A DNA stretch of 64,000 bases, taken from Candidatus Woesearchaeota archaeon. Lineage in GTDB: Archaea; Nanobdellota; Nanobdellia; Woesearchaeales; WJIZ01. The notes below the pieces were generated by a model. That model saw only the letters and a list, made by a program, of their open reading frames with translations, made no database searches and was not told where the DNA came from. Both the position numbers and the translations under genes were made by a program. Shown in pieces: positions 4,140-30,200 of this stretch. The stretch's first letter is position 1. Each line of letters begins with the position of its first letter. Location of the stretch: NCBI GenBank assembly GCA_018221205.1, contig JAAOYF010000046.1, forward strand, positions 1,999 through 65,998. Reading direction: 5' to 3'.

Positions 4140-4140
4140 A

Positions 4141-4386: not shown

Positions 4387-4467
4387 CACTTTTTGAAACG
4401 TAATATTTATATAACAGTTGTGATATTTTTATTACATATGTTCCAAAAAAGTAACAGGTATAAGATT

Positions 4468-4971: not shown

Positions 4972-4972
4972 A

Positions 4973-5377: not shown

Positions 5378-5428
5378 ATGCAGCTATCTCTTACATTATA
5401 GGTAATTTCCTTGTTATTTCTTCTCTTT

Positions 5429-5613: not shown

Positions 5614-5658
5614 GAGTTAGAATAAGTAGAGGCACTATAGTTGGCTAAACGTAAGGGG

Positions 5659-6237
5659 ATGACAGAGAAAACTCCTGTCTTTGCTAATGAGAGTTCTGTT
5701 TTGCAATTAGTCAACTCTGAATCTGATTCTATTACTGAGTCTCTTGCGTTGATTGAGGAGATATCTAAGAAGCATGGAGTAGATATAGGGCATATCACTG
5801 AGATTCTTGAGCACAAGGACAAATACATTGTTCTTCCTGTAGGTTTGTTCAGGAGTAAACTTGGTCCTTTAGAAGCAGTTGTCGGGTATATGAAAGAAGT
5901 TTTGGACCTTAATCTTTCTCAGATTGCACGTTTATTGAACAGAGATGAGACCACCATATGGACAACCTATCAAAATTCTTGGAAAAAAGGGAAGATCATT
6001 GTTGATCTAGAGCTGAAGGATGTTGATTTTGGTGCTTTGAAGATCAAGAAAGAGAACTTTGTTGTTCCCTTATCTGTTTTTGCCAATAGAGAATTGTCTA
6101 TTCTTGAGGCTTTATGTGTGTACTTACGTGAGAATCATGGTCTGAATTATACTATGTTAGGGAAATTGCTAGAGAGAAATGAACGGACTATCTGGACGGT
6201 AGTCAGCAGAGCAAAGAAAAAGTGGACAGAGAGATAG
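5659..6237 (+). CDS. Cassette-1 regulator, a small protein with two tandem sigma-70 region-4 / HTH_10 (Bat-type)-like HTH units
   Basis: Two repeats match L..LE..V.yl.e..gLsy..iA.LL.RdeRTiWT...RAkKK (LGPLEAVVGYMKEVLDLNLSQIARLLNRDETTIWTTYQNSWKKGK and LSILEALCVYLRENHGLNYTMLGKLLERNERTIWTVVSRAKKKW). An AAGGGG motif sits 4 nt upstream of the ATG at 5659, and the ORF track uses a TTG at 5641. Paralogs lie at 36056 and 46478. Confidence 0.6.
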   Translation: MTEKTPVFANESSVLQLVNSESDSITESLALIEEISKKHGVDIGHITEILEHKDKYIVLPVGLFRSKLGPLEAVVGYMKEVLDLNLSQIARLLNRDETTIWTTYQNSWKKGKIIVDLELKDVDFGALKIKKENFVVPLSVFANRELSILEALCVYLRENHGLNYTMLGKLLERNERTIWTVVSRAKKKWTER

Positions 6238-9200: not shown

Positions 9201-12200
9201 TTCAACTCCTCAGGCAGCGAAGATGCTGTCAATTGGAACAAATCTATTGTGGCAGCTACAGGTTCAGCTTTTTACGGTCTGTTCACTGATTCCAACGACA
9301 ATGTCTATGCAGGAATGTCTTCAAATGTCGTCGGTGTCCAGAGCGAGGATGATTGGTGGATCAAGAAATTCAATTCTTCAGGCAGCGAAGATGTTGTTAA
9401 TTGGAACAAAAGCTTTGATGAGGGAACTGCTTGGGCATATGATTATCTTAACTTCATTGCTGTCGACGCAAATGATAATGTTTTCGCTGTTGGGGATATC
9501 GACACTGGCGCAGCAGGCTATAATGATTGGTGGATCAAAAAATTCAACTCCTCAGGCAGCGAAGATGCTGTCAATTGGAACAAGACTTTCAATGCGGGCA
9601 CGAATAAATATGACAGCGCAACAGGTGTTGCCTTTGACAGCTTGAACAATGTCTATGTTTCGGGCTATGGGCAGAATGTTATCAGCGGCACTTCCAGCTA
9701 TGATTGGTGGATCAAGAAGTTTGAAGGTCATCCCATACTTGATACTTCTGCTCCAACTATACTCTTTGTGAACAAGACTGAAGCGAATGGATCCACTATC
9801 ACTGTAAATTATGCTGAGATCAATGTAAGCATCACAGAACTCAATCTGGATGCATTTACCTGGAATTGGAACGGGACGAATTATACGATGTATGATGATA
9901 GCCTGGTGTTGATGCTCAATTTTGACAATGTCTCGGCTCTTGGTGAGAGCAATACATATGTTATTGATGCGAGCAAGCAAAACAATAATGGGCTAGTGTA
10001 TGGAAATGCCTATCCAAATTCTAGTGGAAAATACAGGGGATCATTCGAATTCGGAGGCAGCAGCTCAGATTTTATCAATTTCAGCTCAAATTCAAGCCTT
10101 GATGACCTCAATAACGGAGGATTGACCTTTTCCGCATGGTTATACTTCAGGTCCAGCGGAGGGTTAGACGTCATTTTCAGTAAAGATGCATGGACCAGCG
10201 GATTGATGACGTTTTATATTTCTGATGGAGGAGCCCGAACGCTCCGGTTTATCAAAGATTCTCCGGATCCAGACGTTCGCGCTGACTGGAGCGGAATTAT
10301 CGATCTCGATGAATGGGACCATTATGTGCTTACCTGGAACGGCAGCAACATATCAAGCTCGATTTCGCTCTACAAAAATGGAGCAGAGATTGCGCCATCA
10401 TCAGAGCAAAACGGAAGTGTTCAAACCTGGTCAGATGCAGAGACAGACTTTCTTCTGGGAAGACAGTTCGACGGATTTATGGACGATATCATGCTCTTCA
10501 ATACATCCCTCTCTGCTTCTAAGGCGAAGCAGCTCTATTACTCTAGCCTACAGAAATACGATGCAAACAAATGGGGTTTCTATTCCAATCAAAGCAGTTT
10601 AGCAGATGGCACTTATACTTATCAAGCATATGTGAATGATAGCTTCGGCAAGGCAAATGCTACTGAGTTAAGGACACTCTATGTCGAGGCAGAAGCTCCC
10701 TCAATCAAATTTGTCAATCTTACTGTCGCCAATGGGACTGTGCACATCAAACCACATATCGAGGCGAATGTCTCTATCATCGCAGACGATTTCAGTGATT
10801 TTATCTGGAACTGGAACGGGACCAATTATACGTTCTATGATGATTCATTATCCTTGATGCTCAATTTCGATAATGTTTCTGCTTTAGGAGAGAATGACAG
10901 CCTGGTTGTCGATACCTCTCCTTATGGTAAAAATGGCACTGCCTACGGCAATGCAACACCAAATGTTACTGGCAGGTTCGGAAGAGCATTTTCTTTTGAT
11001 GGTGATGGAGACTATGTTTCTATGGGAACATCGAGTGTCTATAATTTCACTAATGCATCCAATATCACGATTTTGGTATGGGTTTACGCTTATTCTTTGC
11101 CAAGCTATGGGGAGATCATCAACAAGGGCAATACAGAACCAGGCTCTACCAGACAGAATTATGCTATTCAGAGCCAGGATCAGAATATCTCTTTTTTCTA
11201 TCGAGATAGTGCTAATACTGCTTGGGTGGAATATGTGACAGATGCTAGTGTGCTCTCGACAGGATCTTGGCATCATATCGCCATCACTTACAAATTCGGC
11301 ACAGGAAGCTCTGCTAAGATATACGTCAATGGAGCTGAGACATCTGCAACCTGGAGTGGAGGAACAGGCAATGAGGATCCTATGCAAAATGATGAAGAGC
11401 TCTGGATTGGTGCAGTTGATAATGGTGGTGATGACGTGATAGATGAGGAGTGGACTGGGAGAATAGATGGGGTGCGTATGTATAACCGAAGCCTATCATC
11501 GTCAGAAGTCCAACAACATTATTTCTCTAATCTTCGGAAGTATGACACTGATAAATGGAGTTTCTATTCCAATCAGACCAACCTCACCTTAGGCACCTAT
11601 ACGTTCCAGGCATATGCGAATGATACGTATGATAATCCCAATGCGACTGAATTAAGGACGGTTGAGTATAGGGTGAATCCTTATTATGGGAAATTCAGCC
11701 TTCCTCCGACAACCCACTTTAATGTCTCTGCTGATCTTTCGAATATATGTAATGCCACTTTAGCCATCAATGCTATTGGCATGATTGAGTGGAATAATTG
11801 TGTTGATGCGCGGATTGCTAATTTTGATACGTATGTCAATCTTAGTTTCAACAAAGTAAGTGTTGATCCAGTTAATTTAGACTCAAGCTTCAATAGTTCT
11901 GCTAATATTACTCTCTTTTACGTTAATCTTACTAATCCTATCATCCAAAAAGATGGTGCCTATTGTCCTAGCTGTATCATCTTAAACAATGATGGAAATA
12001 ATATCACGTTCAATGCGAGTTCTTTCTCTTCTTATTCTGCTACTGAGAGAACTAATCTTTCAATCTGGGACCTTTCTGATTCACAGACAAGCTATGCTAA
12101 TTTCACCCAGTTCTATGCGAATTATACGAATGCATCAGGTACGATAATTACTACTGGCTATTGTGAGTTCAGACATAATAAGACAGGAAGATGGGCTGCT

Positions 12201-15200
12201 CTAGGGAATATGAGCCTTGGTCCTGGATTGTATAACTGGACTGGTGATTGCGGTTATACTGCAGGAAGGAGCTGCATGCCAGTAGGAAATTATTCTTTTA
12301 ATGTCTCTTGCTTTGATCCTTCTGGTAGTAATGATAACTTAAGTTCGGTTGATAACATTGTTGTTACTGATTATAGCACTTCTTTGGCTATTGAAAATGG
12401 GTCAAGCAGCTATAGCACTGCCCGGAGTGCATATTTCTATGCGAATTATACGACGAGCCATCAGTTCAGCCAAGGGTATGGTGCAGAGATCGGCAGAGTC
12501 ATGCTTAATGTGTCTGGCTTGACACAAGTTAGTACGGTGGATTTCTTCGACTGCCAGAACACTGGAAAAAGGGATTGCATGGTCATCTCTTATCCTTTCG
12601 GCAATGTGACTGTCTTCTATGCAAATGGGAGCCAATACTGGTCCTATCTCGTCACTGGCGGGCAGACTGATGGTGTCGGCAATGGCATTGCTATCGGAGA
12701 TTTGGATAGTGATGGGTATTTCAACGATATCGCTGCTCCCACTACTGATGGTCCGAATTTTATTGTCCTCAATGAGACCGGAGATCTTGTGTTCCAGAGC
12801 AGTTTCGGGGAAATAGCGCAAAATGCTCAGGTCATCGGCATCGGCGATCTGGATGGCGATGGTATAGATAATGATATAGTAGTAAATGCTGGGTCGGAAG
12901 AATTCGATGGCTTTGCAGCATTCAATACCTCTGATGGAAAAACGTGGAACAATAAGTGGAATTACACCGAAGGAGGTGGTTCTAGTTCTGCTGGTCGAAC
13001 GATCCTTATGTATGATTTTGCTGGCACAGCCCATGATGAGGTTGTCGCTAATTGGTTCTTGGGCAGTTGCTGTGAAGCAGATAATAAAGTGGTCTACGGC
13101 AATAATGGATCACTTTTCTTCAATCTTTCAGGTTTTCAAGTCCAAGCAACGAGTCTATTGACCATTGATGTCGATCACGATGGTAAGATGGAATTACTTC
13201 AGTCGGGCTACAATGAATTCAATGTCTGGCTAGCGAACAGTACTGAACTCTGGGATAAGTCTTTCTCAGGCTATTCGTATGATGCGCAGGTTGTTGATCA
13301 GGATAGTGAGGGGTGGGATGATGATATTATCCTTCCTCGTCGTGTGTACCAGCAGTCGGCACTGTTTTTTGAAGCGTATGATAATAGCAGCAATCTTGTC
13401 TGGAGCGTCCAGCTCTCTGATACTACTGATGATCTCTACTCTATAGCTGTTTCTGATATTGATGGGGACGGTATTGAAGAGATTCTTATGGGATCCAATC
13501 AAGGATGGCTCTATATGTTCAATCTCTCTGGTAATATGAGCTGGAGCGAAAATGCTAGCTTGGGCACTATCGGTTCTAAGAATGATCCTTCGCCTGGCAT
13601 TGATCCAGGAGACATCACTGGAGATGGACTGCCTGACTTCTTGGTCGGCTTTGGTGATGGTATCTTCAAAGTGTATCAGGATGTCGGCTGCACTATCGAG
13701 TATAATGACAGCACTGCAGACATGACCTGGAATGAGACGCTCAATAAATGGCAGGCGAGCCGCGTGTTTAGCTCTACTGGTACTTGGGAGTATAATATAA
13801 CATGCTCCAAAGGAGGATATACTAACCAGATTATCTCTTCCACAATTTCCATCAGGGATGAAGCTGCAATAATTAATGAAAACAATACACAGCCTTTGAT
13901 TCCAAACTACAACCAGAATGTAAGCATTTATGCAAATGTAACAGATGCCACCGACGATATCAGCTGGGTAAACTTCACATTGCAAAATCCATCAGGAACA
14001 AATGTAATCAGTTATGAAAACGGAACACAGACAGGAGATATCTGGAATTCAAGTTCTTATATTGTTGATGAAATTGGTACGTGGCTATGGTGGATTAATG
14101 CTTCTTCGTCAGACGGCACCAAAGCAAACAGCTCAGGCTCCTTTACTATCCCTGATGTAAATTTGACTTTTTATTCAAACGAAACCAATACAACTGCTTT
14201 CAGCTTCTTAAACGGCACCTTTACCAATATAAGCTATTCCACCAGTAATAAAGCCATTAGCTTGATTCCTGGCAGAAACAAAGGGAATTACCTCTCTGAT
14301 GTCTTCAACGCCTCTACAAATGCAACATGGGTAAATATTAGCTGGGTTAGCAACAATTTGGAAATTAATCCTAAGGAGCCCCTGGTCAAGGATATGGTGC
14401 TTCTCATGCATTTGAACAATGATTCAGGATTTGGGGAAAACAATAGTTATGTTAAGGACTTTTCTTCATATGGAAATGATGGAACGTGTTCAAATTGTCC
14501 TAAATTTGTCGGCACAGGCTATTTCCAAAAAGCTGCACAGTTTAATGATTCATCATCTAATCAGCTGAACATTCAGAATGACGACAGCATTAGCTTTGCC
14601 AGTGGAGAGACCATTGCAATCTCTTTTTGGGTGAATAAAACAAAGGAACAGGCAAATCAGGCAGTATTGGCTAAAGTAGGCAACAACAACAACGATTATT
14701 TCAATTACTATATTGGAGTAAAAAGTTCTACAGGGGCTTTCAGATTTCAGTACCATAATACTAGCGGAGATATTAATTCATGGAACGGTTCCTCGGGAGC
14801 CATGGCAATGTCATTAAATAAATGGGTTCATTTTGTCATGGTATATACTTATGGTGATGGTCCATCATTTCAGTTATTTAGAAATGGCATTAATGTAACC
14901 TCTCAGGGAGGATGGACATACGGAGACGGCTCAGGGGCGCCAAGTACCAATACAAACACACTCAAAATCGGCAGGGCAGGAAATTGGTGGGGGCACATGA
15001 ACCATGCCAAAATCGATGAACTAGTCATGTGGAACAGAACATTATCAAAAGAGGAAATCTATCAACTTTATTACCGTGGAGCACAAAGACTAAACCTCTC
15101 AATTAGAAGCTGCGACGACTCTGCCTGTTCAGGAGAATCATGGACAGCTATTGATGATTATTCTTCGCAATCAATTGGAATTGCAGACAACTACTATTTC

Positions 15201-18200
15201 CAGTACAATGCAAGCTTCAACACAACAAACATAACTTATTCTCCAAAACTCTATAATATCACAATCAACTATTATTCAGACCAGATACAGCCGGGAATCA
15301 CATTAATCTACCCGCAAAACGACAGCTCATTGAATACCAGCTCAATAAACTTCAACTGGACAACAGCAGACAATTACCATTCAACATTAACCTGCAACCT
15401 AACAATAAACAGTGCTGTAAATATTTCTAATATTATTGCCGGCACATCAACTTATACAAATTATACTGTCAATGGCTTTGCAGAAGGCACATATCTCTGG
15501 AATGTAACCTGCATAGACGGCTCCAGAAACTCAAACACCTCTTTGACTTACAATTTCACATATACTCCTCCTCCGGACTACTTCCCGGGCTACTGGAACA
15601 ATGCTACAAATTCACCGGACAAAATTCATCAGAATGTTTACTTCTGGTTTAACTGGAGCGACGATAATGGATTAAGCCACTACATCTTCTCATGGAACGG
15701 CACCAACGGAACATGGATGAACGATACATCTGTAGTATTTACAGGACTAGTTAATCAATCAAACACAAGCAAATTAATCAACCTATCTGGAGGAAATACA
15801 ATAGGCTGGAGATATTATGCAAATGACACAAGCAATCAATTTAATTTCACTCCAATATACACTTTTATAGTAAGCAATACAACAAACCTTACTATAACAG
15901 ATTTATCAGACACGCAGACAGTCTATGCAAATTTCACGCAGTTCTACGCTAATTATAGCCATGATGACATATCTATCTCTTCAAATGCCTATTGCGAATT
16001 CAGGCATAATAAGACAGGGGTCTGGAAAACGTTAGGCAACATGAGTTATGATTCTGGCAGTGGATTGTATAACTGGACAGGCGACTGCGGCTATTTGGCT
16101 GGACATTCTTGCATGCCAGTAGGAAATTATTCTTTTAATGTAAGCTGTTTTGATTTATCTGGGGGTTATGATAACCTGAGCAAAGTAGATAGTGTTGTTG
16201 TCACTGATTATCCAACTTCACTAATTCTTGAAAATGGCTCTGATAGTTATAATCTCCTTTCAGTAGCATACTTCTATGCGAATTATACAAGGGATAATGG
16301 TTTTGGAGTGAATGCCCCCCCGGGACAGGAGATAGGGAGGGTGTTCTGGCGCAGCAATGATTATGAGAAAAATGCGGGTGGTGGGGTTATTGCTGCTCTT
16401 GACCTTGATGAGGATGGAAAAAAGAATGATATTGCTGCTGCTATGAGCAGGACATTTGCTAAAGATGGACTCCTTGTTGCCTTCTACTCAAACACTACAG
16501 AGGCATGGAACTATACAAGCGGCATAAACATTGATGACTTGAAAACAACAGACCTTGACGGGGATGGGTATGCGACCAACCTCTTGTTCAATACTTATCT
16601 TGACAATTTCTTTGTGTTCAATAGTACAGGCATGCAGTATTGGAATGCTTCATTAGAGGAATCTGTATCAATCTCTAGTGTAGGGGATGTTGACGGAGAC
16701 GGAAACAATGATATCCTTGTCTGGCGGCGCAATAATCATAGTGCATATAATAAATCTGGTGATTTGATATGGATAAAGAATCATACTGCCGGAACAGTAG
16801 CAAGGGAAATCGCTTTCGGCGACCTTGATAACGACGGCAAATCAGACGAGTTTGCAGTAGCATGGGGCATTGCATCTATGATAGTCTTTAATGAATCAGG
16901 GGATGAAGTATGGAAAAAAAACACAGGAGGAAGTGGATTCAGTGTTGCATGGGGGGATTTTGACGGGGACGGCTATAAGGATGATATCGCACGGGGAGAT
17001 AATTATGGTGCACTCAGGTTCTATAATGCGAGCGGCGATGCAATTGATGTTGTCACAGGCAACAGGCCTTATGAATTAATTGTAGTTGATTATGACTCAG
17101 ATGCCATTGATGATATTATCGCAGGCGTGCAGTACGGCAATGTCACTCTCTACAATGGCACGCTCGATGCACAATGGGTGTTCGATACTGCACAAGATGT
17201 CTATCATGTGCTTGCCGAGGATGTAGACGGCGACGGCATTCAGGAAGTCATTGTAGGTGATGCAACTGGTATAGTTCATTTGCTTTCTTTTAATGGAAGC
17301 CATCGCTGGAGCCAAGGCACAATAGAGAGCGGAATGGGAACAAGTGATGAAGCAATGGCTGTTCTGGATTTCAACAATGACGGATTGCTTGATATAGGGA
17401 CTGTGTCATACTATGGATTCATCAATGTCTATCAGGATGTCTCCTGTGTTATGGCATTCAACGACTCCTCAAAATACAACATGACTTGGAATAATTCATT
17501 GAATAAATGGCAGGCGAACAGGACATTTAGCTCTTCTGCGACGTATGACTACAATATAACATGCTCCAAAGGAGGATATACACAGCAACTCGGCACTTCT
17601 CAAATCAAGATAGGCTCGATACCTGTCATTAATAAGAATTATACCATTCCTACGATGCCTTTCTATGGACAAAATGTCACTATACAAGCGAATGTAACTG
17701 ATGATAATAATAATATCCGCTCAGTCAACTTCAGTTTAGTCGGTCCTTCAGGAATATGGTATATCAACTATACAAACGGGACTAACTTCAACAATGATAT
17801 GTGGAATTCTTCTTTATTTGAGCTGGGTGAGTCCGGGACATGGAGCTGGTACATCAATGTCACTGATGATGATGGATATATCACCTCGAGTTATGGCAGT
17901 TTTGTTGTTTCGGAGAACCCACCGAATGTAACTTTGCTTTATCCATTGAATATCAATGTTAGCCATACTCGTATTATAGGCTTTGTCTATAATGTTTCCA
18001 GCCCGATAGATATTTCTTCATGTTCATTATATATCCATAATATCCTGAATGATACTGACAGTTCTGTAACTGAAAACATCAACCAGACTTTTATCAAAAC
18101 CCTTAATAATGGAATATATAACTGGACTGTCGGATGTATTGACAATACAGATCAAGCTGTGAATGCAACCTTTGGATTCTTTAATATCAGTGCAGATGTC

Positions 18201-21200
18201 CTTGTGAGTGAGAATTTAAATCCCTCAAGCATCTTTGAAAATACGCCAACTAATATCTCTGTTTCCGGACATATCAACCTGTCCAATGGGGAGAATGTGA
18301 GCAATGCGAACATCCTCATCTATTTCAATAGCTCGCTTATCAGCGTTGCGACAGGCCAGACCTATACAGATTGGATGAATTACAGTTATCATTACCGCAC
18401 ACTGATTAATGTTTCACAGGCAGCATCGGCAGACCTCAATAATACTCTCTATCTGCTGAACATCTCAACAGACAGATTTATTGCCGCCGGCCGGATGAAC
18501 TCTAACTGCAGTGATGTGAGATTCACGGATGTCAACGGCGCAAACCTCAGCTTTGTACTGGTGTATGGAACATGCAATACCACAAATACACATTTCTTTG
18601 TATGGTCCAACTTAACAGGAAATGCAAATACTTCTCTGTATATGTATTATAATAATCCAGGGGCTTCTTATGCCTCATTGAGTAATCCTGACCCTACTCT
18701 AAAAGCATGGTATCTTTTTGATAATGAGTCTACTTATGGGGAGAATAACACTCATATCTTTGATTTCAGTGGGTATGGTAATAATGCTAGTTGTTCAAGT
18801 ACTTGTCCTGGATATAATTCATCTGCACAATTTGGAGGTACGTTCAATTTTGCAGGCTTTGATACTTATTTTAATGCTTCTCATAGTGAAGCATTAGATA
18901 TCAATGGATCTGCTCTTACCATTACCGCTTGGCTCTACCTCCGACAGACTGGAGCGGATGATGCCATTATCGCTAAAGCTTGGGAAACTGGCGTAAGTGC
19001 TGGTTCAATCTATCAATATGCTGTTGAATGGGATTCTAGTCCAAATGGGATTGATTTCTTTATCGGCAGGCCGGGTGGTGCAGGCCTAACAGAAGTAACT
19101 ACGACAAGTGCACCTTGGGCGGATAAATGGTTGCATTTTGCAGGAACCTATAATGGAACTCATATGGCAATTTATGTAAACGGCATCTTGAATGCAACAA
19201 CTGCTTATACAGAAGGAATTGTGAATCGGACGACACCCTTGATTATTGGAGGAGATTATCAAGGAGAACAGAATTTTGATGGTATGATTGATGATTTGCG
19301 ATTATATAACAGAACATTAAGTGCTGATGAAATATATTCCTTTTTTGCTGATAAAACTCTTTATTATGTATCTAATAATAGTTATACAGCAACTGATTCT
19401 GATGGAAATTACAATTATACTTTTGCTGTTAACGCAGGAGCCGGTAGCTATCCTGTCACGGTGAATCTTACGTATCGGGGAATGATTGGGAACAATACAC
19501 AATATCTTACTGTCAGTGAGAATAGTATCAATCTGACAGAATCCTTGAATCCAAGCAGCATTGATGCTGATACGATGACGAATGTCTTTATCTCTGGCCA
19601 AGTTAACTGGACAAACAGGACTGCTGTCACCAACACCCCAATTGAGATCTGGTTCAATGGTTCTGCTTATTTCTATAATGAATCTGGATTATTGGGCAAT
19701 GAAAGTACATGGTGGGATACTGATTGGAAATATCGTGTGAAGATTGCGTATGAACTGAATGTTACTTCTAGTCTGACCGATACGATCATTCTTGTCAATG
19801 CTTCTACTGCCAGCTACATCTCCTCGGGAAAAATGAATTCAGATTGCAGCGATGCACGATTTGCAGATAGTCTTGGAAGAAAGCTACCTGCTACGGTTGA
19901 AACGTCTACGTGCAATTCTGCTGGAACAATCTTCTGGGCATGGGCAAATTTGAGTGCGAGTACAAACACAACGATGTATATGTACTTTGGCAATAGTGGG
20001 GCTTCATTAGATACAAGCTATACAGTGCCTGATTCTGATCTTCTTGTTTATTATCACTTTGATAATTCATCTGCTTATGGCGAGAATGATAGCATAGTGT
20101 ATGATTTTTCCAGGAATGGAAGAAACGGAACGTATTATGGCAATGCATTCAGTAATTCTACTGGTTATTATGGGGGGATGCTTCAAATGGATGGTGTAGG
20201 AGATTATGTCAATACTACTGATATCTCTTGGGCGCAGACTGACAGCTTCACGATGATGTTATGGTTCTATAAATATTCTGCAACTAATGGCGTATTGATC
20301 GGTAAACATCACACTGCCAGTCCATTTGAGTTTTCTTTCTATACTGGGACAAATAGTGTCGACTTTGCTGCATGGAGCAGTCCCGGTGACACTAGCCTCG
20401 CTTTCAATGGCCAGGTGAACATCTTTGCTAATACTTGGTATCACGTCGCAGTTACGTACAATGGTTCTGTAGGTAAGATGTATGTCAACGGCATGAATAG
20501 AAGCAACGACACTTCTGATAAAACAATCGGAGATGGCACCCTGAACTTGCAGGTCGGATCAGGGTATCATCCTACCACTGCCGGAGTTGCTTACTTGAAT
20601 GGCTCAGTTGACGAAGTCCGAATCTATAACAGAAGTCTTTCTCATGATGAAATCAAAGCAATTTATAATGCCACTAAAGGCTATTTCCTTGGCAACCAAA
20701 GTTTGACTGTAACTGATAGTCTTGGTAAATATAATTATACTCTTGCTGTCAATAAATTTGCAGGAACCTACCCTGTTAAAGTGAATATGACTTCTAATGG
20801 AAAGGTTGGCAACAATACCCAATATTTGACAGCGTCATATGTAACTACTGTAACGCTGAATAGTCCAGAGAACGATTATGTTGCGCAAGATAGTATTACG
20901 TTTAATTGTTCAGCTGTCAATCTTGGAGGATTGAACAATATCACGCTGTATTGGAACTATTCTGGCAATTTTGTGAGCAATGGGACAGTCAACATAAGCA
21001 GTACTGCGAATGGGACGACCTTTACTAGGCAGTTGCCTAATCCTCGGGAGAATGTCTTATGGAACTGCCTTGCCTATGGGACGCAATCGAACTCGTTTGC
21101 TTCTGCTAACAGAACATTCAATGCCCGTACCATAACTGTTACTGAAACATTATCGCCAAGTTCGTTCAATGAACTTACCTCTACTGATGTCTCTATAACG

Positions 21201-24200
21201 GGAAACATGAACTGGAGCAACAATACTCCTGTCAATAATATGCCTATAGAGATATGGTTCAATGGAAGCAGGTATTGGTACAATGAGTCTGGTGTCTTAG
21301 GAAATGAAAGTGAGTGGCTCAATGACAGCTGGAAGTATAGGTTGAAGGTGAACATCGATTCAGTCACTACTACTGATCTTAATGATACCCTTGTGCTGGT
21401 TAATGTAACTACTCTTGATTATATTGCTCAAGGAAAGATGCAGGATGACTGTTCTGATGCACGATTCGGAGATTCTTATGGCAATGAACTTGGATTCAGT
21501 GTGGAAACGTCTACCTGCAACACTTCTCTGACTCATTTCTGGGTATGGACCAATCTGACTGGCAGTGTGAATACGTCGATCTATCTTTATTTCGGGAATG
21601 TAGATGCTGGCTTTGATCTGGATTATACTAATCCTGATGATAGGCTGCTCATCTACTATCATTTTGATAATTCTTCGGCTTATGGCGAAAATGATGCTCT
21701 TGTGTATGATTTCAGCAGGCATGGAAATAATGGTACTATAGGTAGAGGAGATGAATTCATCAATACAAGTGGCAGATTCGGAGGGGCAATGCAGCTTGAT
21801 GGGGATCTTGATTATGTCAATACAACAGACCTCTCGTGGAAGACGAATGAGAGCTTCAGCATGCTGGCATGGTTTAAGGCTTTTGATAATACTGCGGGTG
21901 TGATCTTTGGAAAGCCAACGTTTGAATATTCACTCTATACTGAAGCCGATGGATCAATCATCTTTATCTATTGGAAATCATCTGGCTTAGAAGCGATAAC
22001 TTTAGCTGAATATAATGCAGGGATTGTTCCTTATCGATGGTATATGGCAGCAGTGACGTATAATGGATCTGAAGGAAGGCTTTATATCAATGGAACTTTG
22101 AGACAGACTGATAATGCTGTTACAGGAACACTTGAGAATAAGGCCAATAACTTGCTTATCGGCTCTGGTTATCATGGTGCCCTCGGCTCTACTGGAAACT
22201 TCATTGGATTGATCGATGAGGTTCGTGTCTATAATCGAAGCCTTTCTGAGGATGAAGTCATGGCGATCTATAATGCTACTCGTCGCTATTATCTCGGTAA
22301 CCAAAGCCTGACCATGACCGATTCAATCGGCAATTATGATTATACTCTTACTGTTAATATGCCAGCTGGTACTTATCCTGTCAAAGTGAATGTCAGTTCT
22401 GGTAGTGTTGTAGGGAATAATACAAAATATCTTACTCTTACTTCTATCCCTACTAATTTGAGCATCTCAGATCTGTCTGACAGCCAGACTGTGTATGTTA
22501 ATTATACGACTTTCAGTGCTAATTATTCGTATAATTCTGCAGCCATTATTGATGGTTATTGTGAATTCAGGCATAATGCAACTGTTAGTTGGAGTTCTGG
22601 ACGGAATATGACATATAGTCCTGTTACTAAGAAATATGAAATTATTGCAGATGGCAAATATGATTCAATGATGGAAAGCCAGGAGAGGTGGATACTAACG
22701 CCCAATCATACTGTGAATCTTCTAGCCGGAGATTATTCGTACAATATCAGCTGTTTCAGCGATTATGATAATATCAGCAAAGTAGATGCCCTTTCCATCA
22801 GCGATTATTCGACAACTATGATCCTTAACAAGAGCTCATCTAATGTTACAGTGAATGCTCAAGTTAGTATCTATGCTAATTATTCTGGGCCATGGAATGA
22901 GATAGGCAGGCAGATATGGAACTTCAGCATCGGAACCAACGCCCTTGCAATAGAGGCTGCAGATATTGATAATGACGGTCTGATGGAGGTTGTTGTCGGG
23001 GGAAATACAGGAAAAATTACCCTTTACAATCACACAGGTGGACAAGTACTTCCACTTACTGGCATAGGTGATGGTTCAGTAAGTGATATTGAGATTATGG
23101 ATTTAGATGGAGACGGAATCAAAGAGATTATATATGGCACTAATGCAAATATCACTATTGTCAATGCAAGTTTTGATATACTTGCTAATGCGTACATAGG
23201 AGGTACAGTCAACACTATAGAGATAGGAAATTTTATTAACTCTAGTTTTATAGGCATAGCTGTTGGAACACAATCTGGAACTGATGAATTGAGGATATTT
23301 AATTATTCTAATGGGGATATCACGAGTCTTTGGAACTTTAATTATGATGATGCTATCTATTACGCTGTAATCGATCTTGCGGATATCAATAATGATGGTA
23401 TCATGGAAATCATCGCAGGATCCACAGGAAGCAATCTTACAGCATTCCTCGGAAATGGAACAGTTCTCTGGAATATAGATACTGGGAATTCGGTTAATTC
23501 TGTCGAGGCAGCAGATATCAACAATGACGGCAAAGTGGAGATTGTTGTGGGCAAGCATGATGAAACTGTTTTGATCTATAATTCAAGTGGCGATCAGATC
23601 GATATCGTCACTAACGCAGGGAATAATTATCCCTATGATCTGGAAATCAATGATCTTGACAATGATGGCAAGATAGAAATTATTTATGGAGATAGTGCAG
23701 GTGTGCTAAATATATTCAATTCCACTCTTGATTCTCAAGATTCTTATTCTAACGGTATCGGAATCAATGAAATAATCATCGCTGATATCAATCATGACGG
23801 AGTAAAAGAAATCATTACAGGCCACAGTGTAGGGACCAATGAAACAAGAGTGTTCAATTATACCAATGGAACTTTGTCAACACTATGGACATATGATTTT
23901 GGTAATACAATATATCAACACGACATAGCAGTTGCTGATATCAACAATGATGGTATCTATGATATGGTGGTTGGTTCTTGGAATACCATTGTTAGGGCAT
24001 TCCAGGATGTACAATGTAATATTGATTTTGGTTCTGGATATATTCCTATGGAATGGGATCCAAATGAAAACAGATGGGAATATAATCGATCATTTGTTAG
24101 CTCAGGCACTAAGCATTATAATGTCAGCTGTTCAAAGAATGCGTATGAAGCGCAAACTTTCCGCAGTAATGTCAGCGTAGCACAGACTGCTGAGTATAAT

Positions 24201-27200
24201 CTCACTACTGTCACTACTGCTAATATCTTCAGTAATGAAACACTTTCTGTGGACATTAATGTCACGAATGATGGGGAACTTGGTGGCCAGATCAATGTCA
24301 CGTGTTATCTCGATAATGCTTTCTTTGATTCATATCTTACTACTATCACAACAGGCAGCTATAATTACTCTACCTGTACAAAATCCATCACGAATGAAGG
24401 AGGAACTAATCATAGTATCAGGGTTGCAATTGACCCTCTTGATCAAATTGTTGAATTTGTTGAAACTAATAATAATCAAACACTGAGTATTAATATCACC
24501 CAATTGACAGGATTTAATATTTCTTCAACAACTCCATACGTCGATAAACAAGTAACATTCTTCTTTAATTATACTCGAGATAATGATAATAGCAATCTAG
24601 GTCCTGCTCTAGCTGCACGATGGACTGCAAGCACTGGAACAGGCAACCTACTGTTTTCTGTCGCTATTGGAGACCCTAATAATGATAGTCTGATGGAAGT
24701 TGTTGTTGGAGATGCAGATAGAGATGTGTTCCTCTATAATTTTTCTGGATCGCAAATTGATTCAACAAGTTTTGGCTCTACGAATGATGTTAAAGGAATT
24801 GCTATCGAAGATTTAGACAATGATGGAAAAGACGAAATCATTTATGGGGATGACGGCTCAGGTCCATTGCTAAGGGTCATTAATGAGACTCTTGATGTAC
24901 TTGCAACAACATCAGGCCCCCAGGTTTGGAATATACAAATAGGGGATATCAACAATGACAGTATCAAGGAGATCATAGCGAGCGGTTCAGGAACTAACGA
25001 TACTAATGTTTATAACTACACTGGCAGCAGTCTAACTCATCTATGGGGGTGGGAATACGGTGGCATAGTACTTTATCATGCTGTAGACCTTAAGGATATT
25101 ACTGATGATGGAGTTCTAGATATCATTGTCGGCTCTCTAGGAAGCAACCTTACTGCATTCTATGGCAATGGGACCATAATATGGAATGTAGATACTGGGT
25201 TGGGAATCTATTCTGTTGAAGCAGGAGACATTGATGGAGATGATGATATTGAAATAGTGATCGGAGATGATGCTGGAGACGTTACTGTCTATAACTCCAC
25301 TGGAGGAGTAGAAGTTTCTACTACTTCTCTTGATGCTGGCGATGTTCAAGATATCGAAATCTCTGATTTGGACAATGATGGAACCAATGAGATCATTGTC
25401 TCCAGCCTATCAGAACTCTATATTCTGAATTCCAGCCTGGATACTTTAACATCAGTTCCCACTTCTTCAATTTTTTATAGTATCCACATCGCAGATGTCA
25501 CAGGAGATAGTCTGAAAGATATCATCGTTGGCATGTCTTCAACGACCAATGAGACAAGAGCATACACCTATTACCAAGGTTCACTAACAAATATCTGGAA
25601 CTATGATTTTGGTGGTGAAGTTCCGTATAAAGGAATTGCCTTAGCTGACGTTGATAATGACAGCTTATCAGATATTGCTGCGGCATCTAAAGGTGCTGGC
25701 ACCAATGTCATCCTCACCAAACTTGAGAACTGCGATATCTGGTTCAATGATACTAATGTATGGAAGCCTATGGGCTATAACTTTACTACACTTGAATATA
25801 ATTTCAACAGGACGTTCAGCCAATCAACGACTTATGCTTATAATATCTCATGCACGAGGAATTCGACAGCTCCCCTGTTATTCTTCGAAGCTCAGACATA
25901 TAGTTCTACTTTTGATGTCTTGGAGACTCCTATCAATCTATCAATCTCTGATCTTTCAGACAGCCAGACAACTTATGCAAACTTCACTCAGTTCTATGCT
26001 AACTATAGCTATGATGGCCTGCCTATCTCTTCGAATGCATACTGTGAATTTAGGCATAATAAGACAGGAATATGGAAATCATTAGGGAATATGACTTATA
26101 ATGGTGGAAGCAAGCTGTATAACTGGACTGGTGATTGCGGATATTTAGCAGGACATAGTTGTATGCCTGTGGGTAATTATTCATTTAATGTAAGCTGCTT
26201 TGATTTAAGCGGTAGCTATGATAATCTCTCTGCTGTTGATAGTGTTGTTGTTACGGATTATGCAACTACATTAGCTCTTGAGAATGGATCTGATTCATAT
26301 TCGACAACTGATGTTGCGTATTTCTATGCGAATTTTACAACGAGCCATCAGTTTAGTCAAGGATATGGTGCAGAGATCGGCAGAGTCATGTACAATAGGA
26401 CCACCTTGTCCAATGTGGGCACTGTTGATTTCTTCGATTGCCAGAATAAAGGCATCAATGATTGTATGGTCACCACATATCCAAATGGAAATATCACTGT
26501 CTACTATGCCGATGGGTCTCGCTATTGGTCATATCTCTATGCTGGATCACAGACTGATGGAGTTGGTAGTAATATCGCTATCGGTGATTTAGATGGTGAT
26601 GGCTATTTCAATGACATCGCTGCGCCAACAACAGATGGCCCCAATATCTTCGTCCTCAATGAGACTGGAGCGCTCGTCTTCGAGAGCAGCTTTGGCGAAA
26701 CAACTTATTTGGATGCTGTGGTCGGCATCGGCGATCTCGATGGAGACGGACTCAAGAACGATATTGTCAACAACCATGGAGGCGGTCAGTTCGACGGTTT
26801 TTCAGCATTTAATACTTCTGATGGGAAGACGTGGAACAGTAAATGGAATTATTCGGAGGGTGGCGCGTCGAGCAGCGTTGCAAGGACCATCTTGCTCTAC
26901 GATTTTGCTGGTACTGGGCATGATGAGGTCGTGGCTAACTGGTTCCTTGGCAGCTGCTGCGAACCAGATAACAAAGTGGTCTACGGCAATAACGGATCAC
27001 TCTTCTTCAATCTCTCAGGTGATCAAGTCCACGGAGCTAGTCTGCTGACCATAGACGTCAATCATGACGGAGTGATGGAACTCATCCAGGTCGGCTACAA
27101 TGACCTACGAGTCTTCAGGGCCAATAGCACACAGCTCTGGTCTGCATCCTTTTCAGGTCATTCCTTTGATGCCCAGATTGTTGATTATGATATTGATGGG

Positions 27201-30200
27201 TGGACTGATGATATCATCACGTCGAGGAGACCCTATAATCAAGATCCCTTGTACTTAGAGATGTATGATAACTCAAGCAACAATGTCTGGAGCGTGCTTC
27301 TTTCAGATACTCGAGATGATATCTATTCTCTTTCAGCTGCTGATATCGATGGAGATGGCGTTGACGAAATCTTTGCAGGATCTAATCAAGGGTGGCTCTA
27401 TATGTTCAATGTCTCAGGCAATATGAGCTGGAGCCAAAACGTGAGTCTTGGCTCTATCGGCACTGATAATGGCCAGATGCCAGGCATCGATGTCCATGAT
27501 ATCACCGGAGATGGATTGCTTGACTTCCTTGTCGGCTTCGATGACGGTGCTTTCAAAGTATATCAGGATGGCGGCTGCAGTATAGAGTATAATGATAGTA
27601 CAGTTGATATGACGTGGAACGAGACGTTGAATACATGGCAGACAAGTAGGACCTTTGCAGGCTCAGGAACATGGAATTATAATATCAGCTGTTCTAAAGG
27701 CGGCTATACTACTCAGACTGTTGTTTCGAACATTGAGGTGGGTGCTAAACCAGTCTTCAATATCAATTATACTATTCCAATCCCACCAGTATTCTTACAA
27801 GAAGTCACTATCCATGCGAATGTGACTGATCCCGACAATAACCTCCATTCTGTCAACTTTACTTTGCAGAGTCCTTCTGGATTCAATTATATCAACAATG
27901 TCAATGGTACGAATTTCAACAATGACCTCTGGAATTCCAGTGGTTTTACGTTGAATGAATCAGGAACATGGATCTGGACGATCAATGCGACAGATACAGA
28001 CGGCTTTACTGCAGCAAGCATGGGCAGTTTCCATGTCGCTGATTATAATGTAACGTTCTTTATTAATGAGACTCAGACACTTGGCTTTGGATTCATCAAT
28101 GGCTCTACGTATAATGTTACTTATAACCAGACGTTCTATGGTTATACATTGGATTCTGGCACCGGCCATTTCAGTTCTTTCATCTTCAATGCTTCTCCGA
28201 ATGCAAGCTGGGTGAATATCTCTTGGGTGAGCAATAATCTTGAGATTAATCCTGAAGAGCCATTGGCTGAAGATCTTGTCTTGTTGTTGCATTTCAATAA
28301 TGATTCGAGATATGGTGAGAATAGTACTTATGTGAGGGATTTCTCACCTTATGGATGGAATGCAACTTGTACCTCTGTATGTCCAGATAACCAAACTAAT
28401 GCTGGTAAATTCCAAGGAGCGTGGAACTATGCAGCTGATACAGGATTCTTCATAACAGATCCAGGAACTTCCTCATTGGACTTCGCAAACAGCTCTATAA
28501 TCACTATCTCTGCTTGGTTCAACTTCTCGGGTAATGATAATGTCTTAGTTACTAAAGGAGATGCTTCATCGATAAATGCAAACTATAAGATCGATATCGA
28601 CACTTCTGGTACAGATGTTGACTTCACTTATATTGATGAGAACTCACAGACACATTCTTGGCTAGGTGCATCTGGTTCTATGGTACAATTCAACATATAC
28701 CACCTTGTGTTCTCTTACACGTTTGGCGACAATGAATCAGTCAAAGTCTATGTAAATGGGGTGAATTATACAGGAAGCTGGACAACCGGGAATGGTTCAT
28801 CATCGCCTAGTACCATGAATGATCCGTTGACTATAGGTTATGCGGACTTTACTTCCGGCTACTTTAATGGATGGATTGATGAATTGGCTATCTGGAACCG
28901 ATCCTTGTCAGAAATAGAAATCCATGATCTTTATTATCGTGGAACACAGCGACTAAATATTTCTGCACGAAGCTGTGATGATTCAAGTTGTTCAGGAGAA
29001 AGCTGGACTGAGATAACTGATTACACTCCGCAAGACTTTAGTTTAGCGGATAATCCTTATTTCCAATATAATGTCAGTTTCTCAACGACTAATATAAGTT
29101 ACAAGCCTAAATTGTACAATGTTACTATTGGTTATTATCAAGATCTGACTCAACCTTCTGTCATCTTGAATTATCCAACGAATGGATTAGGAATATCGAG
29201 CTCAAGTGTCAATTTCAACTGGACCGCAACAGATAATGTGCATACTAATTTATTATGCAATCTCACTATCAATGGAAAGGTGAATGTTACTGCCAATGCA
29301 ACTTCGGGAGTGCATGAGAATTATCAAGTGAATAATCTTGCTGATGGCAGTTATGATTGGAATGTAACGTGTAAAGATGGATCGCAGAATGCGAATACTT
29401 CTCTTACGTATAGTTTTACTATAGATACGACTGCTACTTCTATCAGCTTTGCTGATCCTACTCCGTTGAATGCTACTTTTGTCAATGAGGATTATGCTAT
29501 TATTAATGTGTCTATCACTGAGGCTGATTTAGATAAACTTGTCTTCAATTGGAACGGGACTAACTTTACAATCTATAATGATTCTTTAGTCTTGATGTAT
29601 AATCTTGATAATGTCTCTGCTTTAGGTGAGAATGATACTCATGTTGTTGATATGAGCGGACACGGTTATAATGGCACTTCTTTGGTTAACAACAGCGACG
29701 GCAGTTTCAGGGGCCCAAATGCAACAGGAAGATATGGATCTGCATATGAATTTGATGGAATAGATGATTATATCAATCTTGGAGCGGTTGATGTATTTGA
29801 AGATTTGAGCCAGTTGAGTACCTGCTTATGGTTTAAAACAGCACATACAGGGACAAGCAGAGATATTTTCACACAGCAAGTTGACACCGTCTGGATTCAA
29901 ACTGGCCTTTCAGGGACAGTATTTGCTACAAGGGTAGCTACTTCCTCCTGGGTCAATGGTAATAAGATAGTCAATGATGGATTATGGCATCATGGATGTA
30001 TTACTTATAACGGATCAGATGTATTTCTGTATGTCGATGGAGCCCAGGATGCCAATGTATCGGACGCGAATTCAGCTACTGTAACCACTGGAGATTCTGT
30101 TTATGTCGGTGGTACTGCCACATACTTCAATGGCACTATAGATGAAATCATCGTATGGAACACGACTCTCGGAAGTGCAGAAATCAATCAACTCTATTTT

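What the first reader, a model, noticed from the sequence alone, without database searches (positions are those of the whole stretch)
12060..29430. Large internal segmental duplication (~3.5 kb x2, plus partial copies) inside giant-1
Segments 12060-15560 and 25940-29430 encode the same about eight-domain super-module at ~70-80% amino-acid identity. Shorter related copies occur at 15899-17900 (DLSDTQT..CEFRHNKTG module plus diverged propeller), 22459-22900 (degenerate) and 31270-32660 (LamG plus SCDDSACSGESW plus FN3). Long near-identical intragenic repeats are substrates for homologous recombination, which could expand or contract the protein and shuffle LamG specificities as a variation mechanism. 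They are also an assembly hazard.
Basis: seen in the sequence. Interest (0 to 1): 0.6.

Follow-up and report, generated by a model that had tools for sequence, protein, structure and literature searches.

The report
Old internal duplication in giant archaeal adhesin
A 9,167-residue surface protein of a tiny Woesearchaeota archaeon contains two copies of a nine-domain block of about 3.5 kb, but the copies are old and well diverged, so this is ordinary growth of a modular adhesin by duplication and not an active recombination switch or an assembly problem.

Summary
The duplication is real. Copy A (12051-15563) and copy B (25926-29423) lie inside one uninterrupted ORF (6222-33725, 9,167 aa). They align colinearly over 1,172 codons with only 19 gap columns.

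It is not "near-identical". Amino-acid identity is 62% overall: 73-74% in the first 1.75 kb and 50% in the second. DNA identity is 63% overall and 71.5% over the best 1.8 kb. Synonymous sites are at or near saturation. The longest shared exact word is 27 nt, which codon shuffles reach by chance.

Both copies are under purifying selection (pN 0.18-0.35, against 0.71 for unrelated codon pairs).

The block is: two beta-sandwich "head" domains (CEFRHNKTG motif, no Pfam family), an FG-GAP beta-propeller, Ig, Ig, a small beta domain, LamG, a Cys module and Ig. LamG is the most diverged domain.

The partial copies C, D and E are confirmed. Copy C carries a head 70-80% identical to A and B but a propeller only 26-27% identical, so past domain-level recombination is inferred. 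D is an older paralogue with an orthologue in another archaeon.

Its reading as a present-day recombination substrate and assembly hazard is not supported. Interest is low.

The parts
6222..33725 (+). Giant gene (9,167 aa) with a signal-anchor-like N-terminus: about 95 cytoplasmic residues, then the hydrophobic stretch FTMAAIILLAIFFLQFFTPGIIGFV. The rest is a chain of beta-rich adhesin-type domains.
   Evidence: ORF list and translation without stops. Pfam hits: LamG_3, FG-GAP, SBBP, DUF2341, CARDB, Big_13. 475 N-X-S/T sequons.
12051..15563 (+). Copy A of the nine-domain cassette
   Evidence: Colinear blastp chain to copy B. Per-domain table.
25926..29423 (+). Copy B of the nine-domain cassette
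12051..12529 (+). Copy A head: two beta-sandwich domains with the DLSDSQT...YANY...CEFRHNKTG motif and no Pfam family. The B counterpart is 25926-26417, 75% aa identical.
   Evidence: No Pfam hit at E<=1. AF2 model shows beta-sandwiches at residues 15-150. Motif found 4 times in the gene. Family of 196 representatives.
12530..13649 (+). Copy A FG-GAP beta-propeller. The B counterpart is 26418-27536: 73% aa identity, no gaps, pN/pS 0.25.
   Evidence: Pfam FG-GAP and FG-GAP_3. AF2 model. Foldseek top hits are BamB, BBSome propellers, Bap1 and integrin alphaV..
13650..14393 (+). Copy A Ig1 (13650-13799, 76% to B), Ig2 (13800-14153, 49%) and a small beta domain X (14154-14393, 55%). The B counterpart is 27537-28274.
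   Evidence: AF2 models. Identities.
14394..15092 (+). Copy A LamG / ConA-like lectin domain. The B counterpart is 28275-28955. This is the most diverged domain: 43% aa identity, or 38% on trimmed columns.
   Evidence: Pfam Laminin_G_3 at 1.6e-17 (A) and 2.6e-17 (B). A and B LamG are sisters with bootstrap 0.995..
15093..15563 (+). Copy A Cys module SCDDSACSGESW...YFQYN (15093-15293, 69% to B) plus an Ig / Big_13-like domain (15294-15563, 54%). The B counterpart is 28956-29423.
   Evidence: Motif search. Big_13 hit in B at 5.2e-06..
15564..15881 (+). Beta domain that follows copy A. It is not shared with copy B. It is homologous to the end of copy E (32319-32975, 51%).
   Evidence: the 'after' segment: 31% identity with 43 gap columns against B.
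15885..17999 (+). Partial copy C. Its head is 70-80% identical to A and B. Its propeller is only 26-27% identical to A and B. Its Ig1/Ig2 tail is 56-68% identical to B.
22449..25931 (+). Older cassette D (head plus propeller, 22449-24290) and a second propeller D2 (about 24609-25901). Each propeller is positionally orthologous to one in P0009, a protein of another archaeon.
   Evidence: P0009 aligns at 44% over 1,230 aa. D to P0009 is 46%, D2 to P0009 is 44.5%, D to D2 is 39%. D+P0009 clade has bootstrap 1.0.
31269..32975 (+). Partial copy E: domain X, LamG, Cys module, Ig and a terminal beta domain. It is 41-51% identical to the second halves of A and B.

Best explanation
The feature is an ancient intragenic segmental duplication that helped build a giant, N-terminally anchored, heavily glycosylated surface adhesin of a Woesearchaeota (DPANN) archaeon.

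A nine-domain cassette was copied once within the gene: head1, head2, FG-GAP propeller, Ig, Ig, a small beta domain, LamG lectin, a Cys module and Ig. The breakpoints fall at domain boundaries and the copy is in frame. Both copies have since been kept intact under purifying selection while synonymous sites ran to saturation.

The duplication therefore acts today as fixed protein architecture. It gives two propeller+lectin 'stations' about 4,600 residues apart on an extracellular chain of beta-rich domains. The structural domains are conserved and the LamG domains have diverged, presumably towards different ligands.

It is not a present-day recombination or phase-variation device.

Shown: the duplication, its age relative to other copies, the selection regime and the domain content. 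Inferred: adhesion or glycan binding as the function, divergence of LamG specificity, and past domain swapping.
For: Colinearity and identity.
- 1,172 aligned codons with 19 gap columns; 62% aa and 63% nt identity.
- No stop codon in 27.5 kb.

Age and selection.
- pS is 0.69 [0.64-0.76] in the first half and 0.81 [0.75-0.87] in the second. The no-homology reference is 0.77.
- pN is 0.18 and 0.35, against 0.71 for the reference.
- Fourfold-site identity is 0.44 in the first half and 0.30 in the second, against a chance level of 0.26.
- The longest exact run, 27 nt, is within the codon-shuffle expectation. Tandem Repeats Finder finds nothing.

Relationships.
- A and B are each other's closest relatives. 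The best outside homologue among 5.8 billion proteins is 37% identical, so the duplication is lineage-specific.
- It is younger than the D/D2 duplication, which is shared with P0009.

Domain content.

LamG domains.
- Ten LamG domains lie in the protein, 21-52% identical to one another.
- A and B LamG are sisters at only 38% identity.

Family pattern.
- Other giants with the same head domain carry comparable old multi-domain duplications. Examples: P0141, about 600 aa at 53-57% identity and 3,100 aa apart; P0223; P0178.
- Their copies mostly have positional orthologues in other proteins (26 of 38 heads have their nearest match in another protein). That indicates long-term retention.

Source and context.
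- DusB in the window is 100% identical to MBR9699951.1 of a Candidatus Woesearchaeota MAG.
- Giant LamG/Ig surface proteins are described for DPANN and are proposed to mediate attachment to the host (PMC10266531, PMC7414124).
Against: - No reads or population data were available, so copy-number heterogeneity cannot be excluded directly.
- Some archaea are reported to recombine across short or diverged homology. This is my own knowledge and was not tested here. Rare A/B recombination is therefore not impossible.
- The first half is less synonymously diverged than the second (fourfold identity 0.44 against 0.30, roughly p = 0.02 by my own calculation from the counts). A single clean duplication event does not explain this unless codon constraint differs between the halves.
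- Function is inferred from domain types only. The second-half AF2 model is poor (pLDDT 47).
Confidence: 0.85

Rival explanations
1. One reading: the two copies are active substrates for homologous recombination that expands or contracts the protein and shuffles LamG specificities as a variation mechanism. They also endanger assembly.
For: The copies are direct repeats within one gene. Two exact words of 25 and 27 nt are shared in register, at 12229 and 12477. Discordant segment trees suggest that recombination among cassettes happened in the past.
Against: - DNA identity is 71.5% at best, and about 55% in the LamG-bearing half.
- Synonymous sites are saturated.
- The 27-nt run is not longer than codon shuffles give.
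- No k-mer of 28 nt or longer is shared.
- Both copies are under purifying selection with almost no indels.
- From established knowledge, not tested here: recombination frequency falls steeply with divergence and needs tens of bases of perfect identity.
Confidence: 0.05
2. A two-layer history. An older duplication of the whole cassette, still visible in the second half, was followed much later by gene conversion. Alternatively, a second, partial duplication homogenised head2, the propeller and Ig1 between A and B. Copy C was assembled as a chimera: a B-like head and Ig tail around an unrelated propeller.
For: - aa identity drops sharply at about 13800, from 76% to 49%.
- Fourfold-site identity is 0.44 in the first half and 0.30 in the second.
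- Informative sites switch between segments. In 12040-12360: AB 3, BC 15. In 12360-13800: AB 185, BC 26. In 13800-14240: AB 10, BC 25. The AB/BC ratio differs between adjacent segments (Fisher p = 1e-7 and 7e-5).
- C's head is 70-80% identical to A and B but its propeller only 26-27%. In the three pairs of relatives compared, head and propeller identities lie within about 15 points of each other (59/62, 41/47 and 56/42%).
Against: - By my visual comparison with the outgroup rows of alignment A1, several BC|A sites in head1 look like changes unique to A. Faster evolution of A could mimic the BC grouping.
- Synonymous sites do not show B-C to be younger than A-B in the head.
- Bootstrap intervals for pS overlap between most domains.
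- Stronger protein and codon constraint on the propeller could explain part of the contrast.
Confidence: 0.3
3. Copy B (or copy A) did not arise by intragenic duplication. It was imported by recombination from a paralogous or foreign giant gene that carried a similar cassette.
For: The cassette type occurs in other archaeal giant proteins. The window holds two further giant surface genes.
Against: A and B are far closer to each other (62-74%) than to any of the sampled homologues (37% or less). The other giants in the window share no such cassette. Composition across the gene is uniform, GC 0.38-0.44.
Confidence: 0.07
4. Assembly artefact: the second copy comes from misassembly, or from collapse or expansion of strain variants.
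For: The source is a metagenome-assembled genome. No reads were available to check.
Against: - The copies differ at 37% of nucleotides and share no long k-mers, so an assembler has no reason to confuse them.
- The frame is kept through every junction of a 27.5-kb ORF.
- Both copies show purifying selection, and the flanks differ.
Confidence: 0.02

Closest known systems
Giant membrane-anchored surface proteins of DPANN archaea: the nanohaloarchaeal 'SPEARE' proteins, SVXNc_0300 (9,409 aa) and BNXNv_0298 (8,880 aa) (PMC10266531; Hamm et al. 2019, PMC6642349)
   Same: The size class is about 9,000 aa. The host is a DPANN archaeon with a small genome. There is an N-terminal export or anchor signal. 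The extracellular chain is long and built of Ig-like, lectin-type adhesion domains. The two nanohaloarchaeal proteins differ from each other by a block of tandem Ig/fibronectin-like domains.
   Different: Pfam found no VirB4/TraG-like ATPase or protease domain in this protein. No secretion ATPase gene was detected immediately downstream in the Pfam scans. The repertoire here is FG-GAP propellers, 10 LamG domains, DUF2341, SBBP and a head domain with no family. The phylum differs (Woesearchaeota).
LamG / concanavalin-A-like multi-domain surface proteins of DPANN (arCOG07813-type), proposed as host-attachment adhesins (PMC7414124, PMC10266531, PMC5498576)
   Same: Multiple Laminin_G_3 domains lie in a secreted or anchored protein. 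The inferred role is glycan or glycoprotein binding.
   Different: Those proteins carry up to about five LamG domains. This one has ten, embedded in repeated multi-domain cassettes with propellers.
Repeat-built giant bacterial adhesins, including RTX/Bap-type and the 'large adhesion protein' extender repeats (for example PDB 6xi3), and Vibrio Bap1
   Same: Growth by duplication of beta-sandwich modules. The propeller model resembles the Bap1 and integrin-alpha propellers.
   Different: Bacterial extender repeats are often many near-identical tandem units and can vary in number (my own knowledge). Here there are only two dispersed copies, 13.9 kb apart and about 63% identical in DNA.
Recombination-driven antigenic or phase-variation cassettes: contingency loci and silent-cassette gene conversion systems
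   Same: Repeated coding cassettes of related sequence in one locus.
   Different: Those systems depend on long tracts of near-identity or dedicated recombinases. Neither is present here.

Membership tests
Recombinogenic near-identical intragenic repeats (contingency / copy-number-variable repeats) | Long tracts (hundreds of bp) of near-identical DNA between the copies | tested here: not met
   71.5% identity over the best 1.8 kb and 63% overall. The longest exact word is 27 nt.
Recombinogenic near-identical intragenic repeats (contingency / copy-number-variable repeats) | Signs of concerted evolution or recent conversion: low synonymous divergence, or identity runs longer than chance | tested here: not met
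   pS is 0.69-0.81 against 0.77 for the no-homology reference. The identity run is within the codon-shuffle distribution.
Recombinogenic near-identical intragenic repeats (contingency / copy-number-variable repeats) | Copy-number or junction heterogeneity in the population | not testable with these tools
   No reads were available. Exact look-ups of two window proteins (giant 2 and DusB) found no contig on record.
Intragenic segmental duplication of a multi-domain cassette | Colinear, in-frame homology across several consecutive domains, with the copies closest to each other | tested here: met
   1,172 codons aligned with 19 gap columns. A and B are sisters in the propeller, Ig1 and LamG trees. 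Outside homologues are 37% identical or less.
Laminin_G_3 / ConA-like lectin domain (PF13385) | A match above the Pfam gathering score in both copies | tested here: met
   64.5 and 63.8 bits against a cutoff of 27.6. Ten copies lie in the protein.
FG-GAP beta-propeller (PF01839 / PF13517) | FG-GAP repeats above the cutoff, and a propeller fold | tested here: met
   Pfam hits in both copies. The AF2 model has pTM 0.66 and a beta-propeller at residues 165-555. Foldseek matches BamB, BBS, Bap1 and integrin alphaV propellers with probability 1.0.
Nanohaloarchaeal SPEARE-type giant proteins | Giant size, an N-terminal export signal and an Ig/lectin ectodomain | tested here: met
   9,167 aa, a hydrophobic N-terminal anchor, and LamG/Ig domains.
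Nanohaloarchaeal SPEARE-type giant proteins | A VirB4/TraG-like ATPase domain in the protein and an adjacent secretion ATPase gene (PMC10266531) | tested here: not met
   No ATPase family appears among the Pfam hits for the giant or for the two downstream ORFs. The MoxR AAA at 58005-59291 is 24 kb away and of a different type.
Diversity-generating retroelement target | A reverse transcriptase plus a template/variable repeat pair with adenine-specific mismatches | tested here: not met
   No RT appears among the Pfam hits of the 24 ORFs scanned, which are all the long non-nested ORFs of the window. The repeats differ at all base types, at 29-45% of sites. The mismatch spectrum was not analysed formally.

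The most novel reading that the evidence does not exclude
The cassette copies record recombination at domain resolution inside a DPANN giant adhesin. Two events are proposed: a later gene-conversion tract (about 12360-13800) that re-homogenised head2, propeller and Ig1 between A and B, and an in-register propeller replacement in copy C. On this reading, paralogous cassettes within (and perhaps between) giant genes serve as a slow, evolutionary-timescale reservoir for re-assorting propeller and lectin modules. That would be a diversification route for host-attachment proteins in genome-reduced symbionts.
Probability: 0.25. Interest if true: 0.4.

Novelty: new member of a known kind. Interest (0 to 1): 0.22.

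Why it matters
As found, it matters little. Modular giant adhesins are known to grow by internal duplication, and this pair is old and stable.

It is still useful in three ways.
- It clears the locus of suspicion as a misassembly or a hypervariable switch.
- It gives a domain-by-domain rate map. The propeller and head are conserved and LamG evolves fast. That points to the LamG domains as the likely specificity determinants of a Woesearchaeota attachment protein.
- It documents an undescribed, rare head domain (CEFRHNKTG motif) that travels with FG-GAP propellers in archaeal giant proteins.

At 9,167 aa the protein is in the same size class as the largest archaeal proteins reported (9,409 aa, PMC10266531).

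Tried and rejected
- Tandem Repeats Finder on 6000-34000 returned nothing. The copies are dispersed and too diverged.
- tRNA and Rfam scans of the window were empty.
- Plain self-blastp returned only the identity hit. I switched to overlapping 300-aa chunks.
- The genome-contig scan with the cassette alignment was swamped by the generic FG-GAP pattern. It returned only weak bacterial propeller hits and gave no orthologue.
- The metagenome-contig scan with the head motif gave only two short loci, L006 and L007. I did not pursue them.
- Exact look-ups of window proteins (giant 2 and DusB) found no contig on record. No alternative assemblies or population variants could be compared.
- The AF2 model of the second half of copy A was poor (pLDDT 47). 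I used it only for rough domain boundaries and did not send it to fold search.
- The Biopython bootstrap consensus gave odd groupings, such as P0002+P0003 against the distance matrix. I replaced it with my own split-counting bootstrap.
- dN/dS ratios could not be computed for most windows because dS is saturated. I report pN and pS against a shuffled reference instead.
- A 'B-C recent duplication of the head' was considered. It is left open because, by my visual comparison with the outgroup rows of alignment A1, several BC|A sites look like changes unique to A, and synonymous sites do not support it.
- A DGR or other targeted-mutation explanation was considered and dropped. No RT was found and the mismatches are not base-specific.

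Full report
**What is there.** The window carries one uninterrupted ORF, 6222-33725 on the + strand, encoding 9,167 aa. Its start overlaps the end of a small helix-turn-helix gene. The N-terminus has about 95 polar residues followed by a 25-residue hydrophobic stretch. There is no C-terminal anchor. The rest is made of beta-rich extracellular domain types: SBBP repeats, FG-GAP propellers, Laminin_G_3, DUF2341, CARDB and Big_13. It contains 475 N-X-S/T sequons. A DusB gene in the window is 100% identical to MBR9699951.1 of a Candidatus Woesearchaeota MAG, on a contig of 75,366 bp. Relatives of the giant occur in Pacearchaeota and other 'archaeon' MAGs. The gene is therefore a giant surface protein of a DPANN archaeon.

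**Checking the observation.** Overlapping 300-aa chunks blasted against the whole protein give a single colinear chain: aa 1930-3113 against 6555-7733, which is nt 12009-15560 against 25884-29420. Chunk E-values reach 1e-148. A global alignment has 1,172 aligned codons and only 19 gap columns. The duplication and its coordinates are confirmed.

The identity claim is only half right. The first 1.75 kb is 73-74% identical in protein, the second 1.75 kb is 50%, and the whole is 61.9%. At the DNA level blastn detects only 12054-13830 against 25935-27717, at 71.5%, plus one 227-nt piece. Overall codon-aligned identity is 63.1%.

**Domain anatomy.** Pfam on sub-segments and two AF2 models give nine shared domains. 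The first-half model has pLDDT 69 and pTM 0.66. The second-half model has pLDDT 47 and was used for boundaries only. The table gives copy A coordinates and the A/B statistics.

| Domain | Copy A coordinates | aa identity to B | pN | pS |
|---|---|---|---|---|
| head1 | 12051-12359 | 75% | 0.20 | 0.73 |
| head2 | 12360-12529 | 75% | 0.21 | 0.53 |
| FG-GAP propeller | 12530-13649 | 73% (no gaps) | 0.18 | 0.70 |
| Ig1 | 13650-13799 | 76% | 0.16 | 0.80 |
| Ig2 | 13800-14153 | 49% | 0.35 | 0.73 |
| small beta domain X | 14154-14393 | 55% | 0.31 | 0.79 |
| LamG | 14394-15092 | 43% | 0.40 | 0.77 |
| Cys module (SCDDSxCSGESW...YFQYN) | 15093-15293 | 69% | 0.22 | 0.99 |
| Ig3 / Big_13-like | 15294-15563 | 54% | 0.34 | 0.88 |

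The two head domains are beta-sandwiches. They carry the DLSDSQT...YANY...CEFRHNKTG motif and have no Pfam family. Foldseek matches the propeller to BamB, BBSome, Bap1 and integrin-alphaV propellers. Homology to B ends at about 15563 / 29423. The next domain of A (15564-15881) matches the end of copy E instead. Both ends of the duplicated block fall at domain boundaries.

**Age and selection.** For non-homologous (shuffled) codon pairs from the same region, pS is 0.77 and pN is 0.71. The A/B pair has pS 0.69 [0.64-0.76] in the first half and 0.81 [0.75-0.87] in the second. Its pN is only 0.18 and 0.35. Identity at fourfold-degenerate sites is 0.44 in the first half and 0.30 in the second, against a chance level of 0.26. 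Synonymous sites are thus at or near saturation while replacement sites remain strongly constrained in every domain. The duplication is old, and both copies have been maintained as functional protein.

The longest in-register exact match is 27 nt. Codon-column shuffles give a median of 18-21 nt and a 95th percentile of 25-30 nt. There is therefore no sign of a recent conversion tract. A and B share no k-mer of 28 nt or longer.

The longest exact repeats in the gene lie elsewhere, in the SBBP repeat region: 50 and 43 nt at 8687-9583.

**Relative dating from other sequences.** A search of 5.8 billion proteins with copy A found only 16 relatives, and the best is 37% identical. The head+propeller unit of about 620 aa occurs four times in the giant (A, B, C, D) and also in P0001-P0004, P0009 and P0010.

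Domain trees show the following.
- A and B are sisters: bootstrap 1.0 for the propeller and 0.93 for Ig1.
- D groups with P0009 from another archaeon (bootstrap 1.0).
- D and the following propeller D2 each have their own orthologue in P0009 (46% and 44.5%). They are only 39% identical to each other.

So the D/D2 duplication predates that species split. The A/B duplication is younger and lineage-specific as far as sampling shows.

**Mosaic relationships among the copies.** Copy C (15885-17999) has a head 70-80% identical to A and B, but a propeller only 26-27% identical. That is no closer than propellers from other organisms. In the three pairs of relatives compared, head and propeller identities lie within about 15 points of each other: 59/62%, 41/47% and 56/42%.

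Three-way informative sites switch twice along the alignment.

| Segment | AB\|C | BC\|A | AC\|B |
|---|---|---|---|
| 12040-12360 | 3 | 15 | 2 |
| 12360-13800 | 185 | 26 | 19 |
| 13800-14240 | 10 | 25 | 8 |

On the domain segmentation, the AB/BC ratio differs between head and propeller (Fisher p = 1e-7) and between Ig1 and Ig2 (p = 7e-5).

The propeller discordance is robust. It is best explained by a chimeric cassette or an in-register propeller swap. The BC groupings in head1 and Ig2 are weaker. By my visual comparison with the outgroup rows of alignment A1, several of those sites look like changes unique to A, and synonymous sites do not make B-C younger. I therefore treat 'later gene conversion between A and B over about 12360-13800' as a secondary hypothesis (about 0.3) and not as a result.

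**LamG domains.** An HMM built from the gene's own LamG copies finds ten LamG domains. They are 21-52% identical to one another. A and B LamG are sisters (bootstrap 0.995) but only 38% identical on trimmed columns. LamG is thus the fastest-evolving part of the duplicated block, while the neighbouring Cys module is 69% identical. This fits divergence of binding specificity after duplication. With dS saturated, positive selection cannot be separated from relaxed constraint.

**Family context.** A profile of the head domain finds 196 representatives (E <= 1e-3) among 1.84 billion clusters. Many are in proteins of 2,000-7,500 aa, often with several copies per protein.
- Of 38 heads in multi-copy proteins, 26 have their nearest match in another protein. 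These are positional orthologues, which means old, retained duplications. The other 12 have their nearest match in the same protein.
- Other giants show comparable old multi-domain duplications. P0141 has about 600 aa at 53-57% identity, 3,100 aa apart. P0223 has a tandem of about 580 aa at 50-72%. P0178 has eight tandem 318-aa units at 63-84%.

Growth by cassette duplication followed by long retention is the norm in this family.

**Mechanism proposed.** The protein is anchored by its N-terminal helix. It extends a very long, glycosylated chain of beta-sandwich, propeller and lectin domains from the cell. The duplication added a second propeller+LamG station about 4,600 residues from the first, increasing reach and valency. 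The LamG domains then diverged.

This is inference from domain types and from published proposals that LamG/Ig giant proteins mediate DPANN-host attachment (PMC10266531, PMC7414124). Unlike the nanohaloarchaeal SPEARE-type giants, Pfam found no VirB4-like ATPase domain. I therefore do not file it in that family.

**Verdict.** This is a real, ancient, selectively maintained intragenic duplication in a giant DPANN adhesin, and a new member of a known kind. The recombination-switch and assembly-hazard reading is not supported. The only remnant of it is historical domain shuffling, best seen in copy C. Direct population data were not available. Long-read mapping is the decisive test.

Noticed in passing
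5641-6237, 36056-36610, 46478-46951 (+): Three paralogous small proteins, 30-35% identical to one another. Each has two internal HTH repeats (Sigma70_r4_2-like, with the motif ...LSxLEAVVxYLK...IAxLLNRDxxTIWT...). Each sits upstream of one of the three giant surface-protein genes (6222, 36607, 48312), the third with one 384-aa ORF (46921-48075) in between. The first overlaps the giant's start by 16 nt. They may be dedicated regulators of giant adhesin genes.
   Followed up: partly
8544-9800 (+): An SBBP beta-propeller repeat region of about 57-aa units. It holds the longest exact DNA repeats in the gene: 50 nt at 9192/9534, 43 nt at 8687/9524 and 38 nt at 9033/9351. If any part of the gene is recombination-prone or risky for small-k assembly, it is this part and not the A/B pair.
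   Followed up: partly
12051-12529, 15885-16370, 22449-22900, 25926-26417 (+): The 'head' double beta-sandwich with the conserved motif DLSDSQTVYANY..FYANY..CEFRHNKTG has no Pfam family. It is rare: 196 cluster representatives among 1.84 billion proteins and only 2 loci in JGI metagenomes. It almost always precedes an FG-GAP propeller in very large archaeal proteins.
   Followed up: partly
18198-22469 (+): Three tandem copies of a unit of about 440-535 aa containing DUF2341 and LamG (aa 3993-4432, 4430-4965, 4965-5416). The last two are 50-57% identical. This is a second, separate internal duplication series in the same gene.
   Followed up: no
22416-25925 (+) and L009: This 1,230-aa stretch (head D, propeller D, propeller D2) is 44% identical and colinear with P0009 (NOQ38374.1, 'archaeon', a partial protein on a 5.4-kb contig). 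It is the only part of the giant with a clear positional orthologue elsewhere.
   Followed up: partly
34664-35875 and 43863-45041 (+); L008 5545-6756 and 7792-8940: A 403-aa protein with a weak CARDB hit lies just downstream of the giant. It has a paralogue at 43863-45041. It is conserved (32% identity) downstream of the related giant fragment P0003 in an ENA contig. That contig's giant also shares the C-terminal 260 aa with this one (38.5%). This suggests a conserved giant-plus-accessory gene pair.
   Followed up: partly
36607-42864 and 48312-57308 (+): Two further large surface proteins. The first is 2,085 aa with Kelch and MopE-like metal-binding motifs. The second is 2,998 aa with Big_9, cadherin-like and PKD domains and with both N- and C-terminal TM segments. 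About 67% of the 64-kb window encodes three surface proteins. Giant 3 (aa 743-1313) is 29% identical to giant 1 (aa 84-653).
   Followed up: partly
12273-12304 vs 16110-16141 (+): A 32-nt exact match between copies A and C, encoding CMPVGNYSFNV. It exceeds the maximum of 500 codon shuffles (31 nt). It may be a tiny conversion tract or nucleotide-level constraint. After correction for multiple tests it is marginal.
   Followed up: no
58005-61118 (+): A MoxR AAA ATPase, a DUF58 protein and a VWA/BatA-like protein sit in a row, directly after giant 3. This is the usual MoxR-VWA chaperone-type operon.
   Followed up: no
180-2297 and 3005-4971 (+): Two adjacent apiosidase-like (PF13204) glycoside hydrolase ORFs, the first with a collagen-binding-like domain. 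They are followed by two nucleotidyltransferase-fold ORFs (DUF2204, and Pol-beta NTase fused to a wHTH).
   Followed up: no
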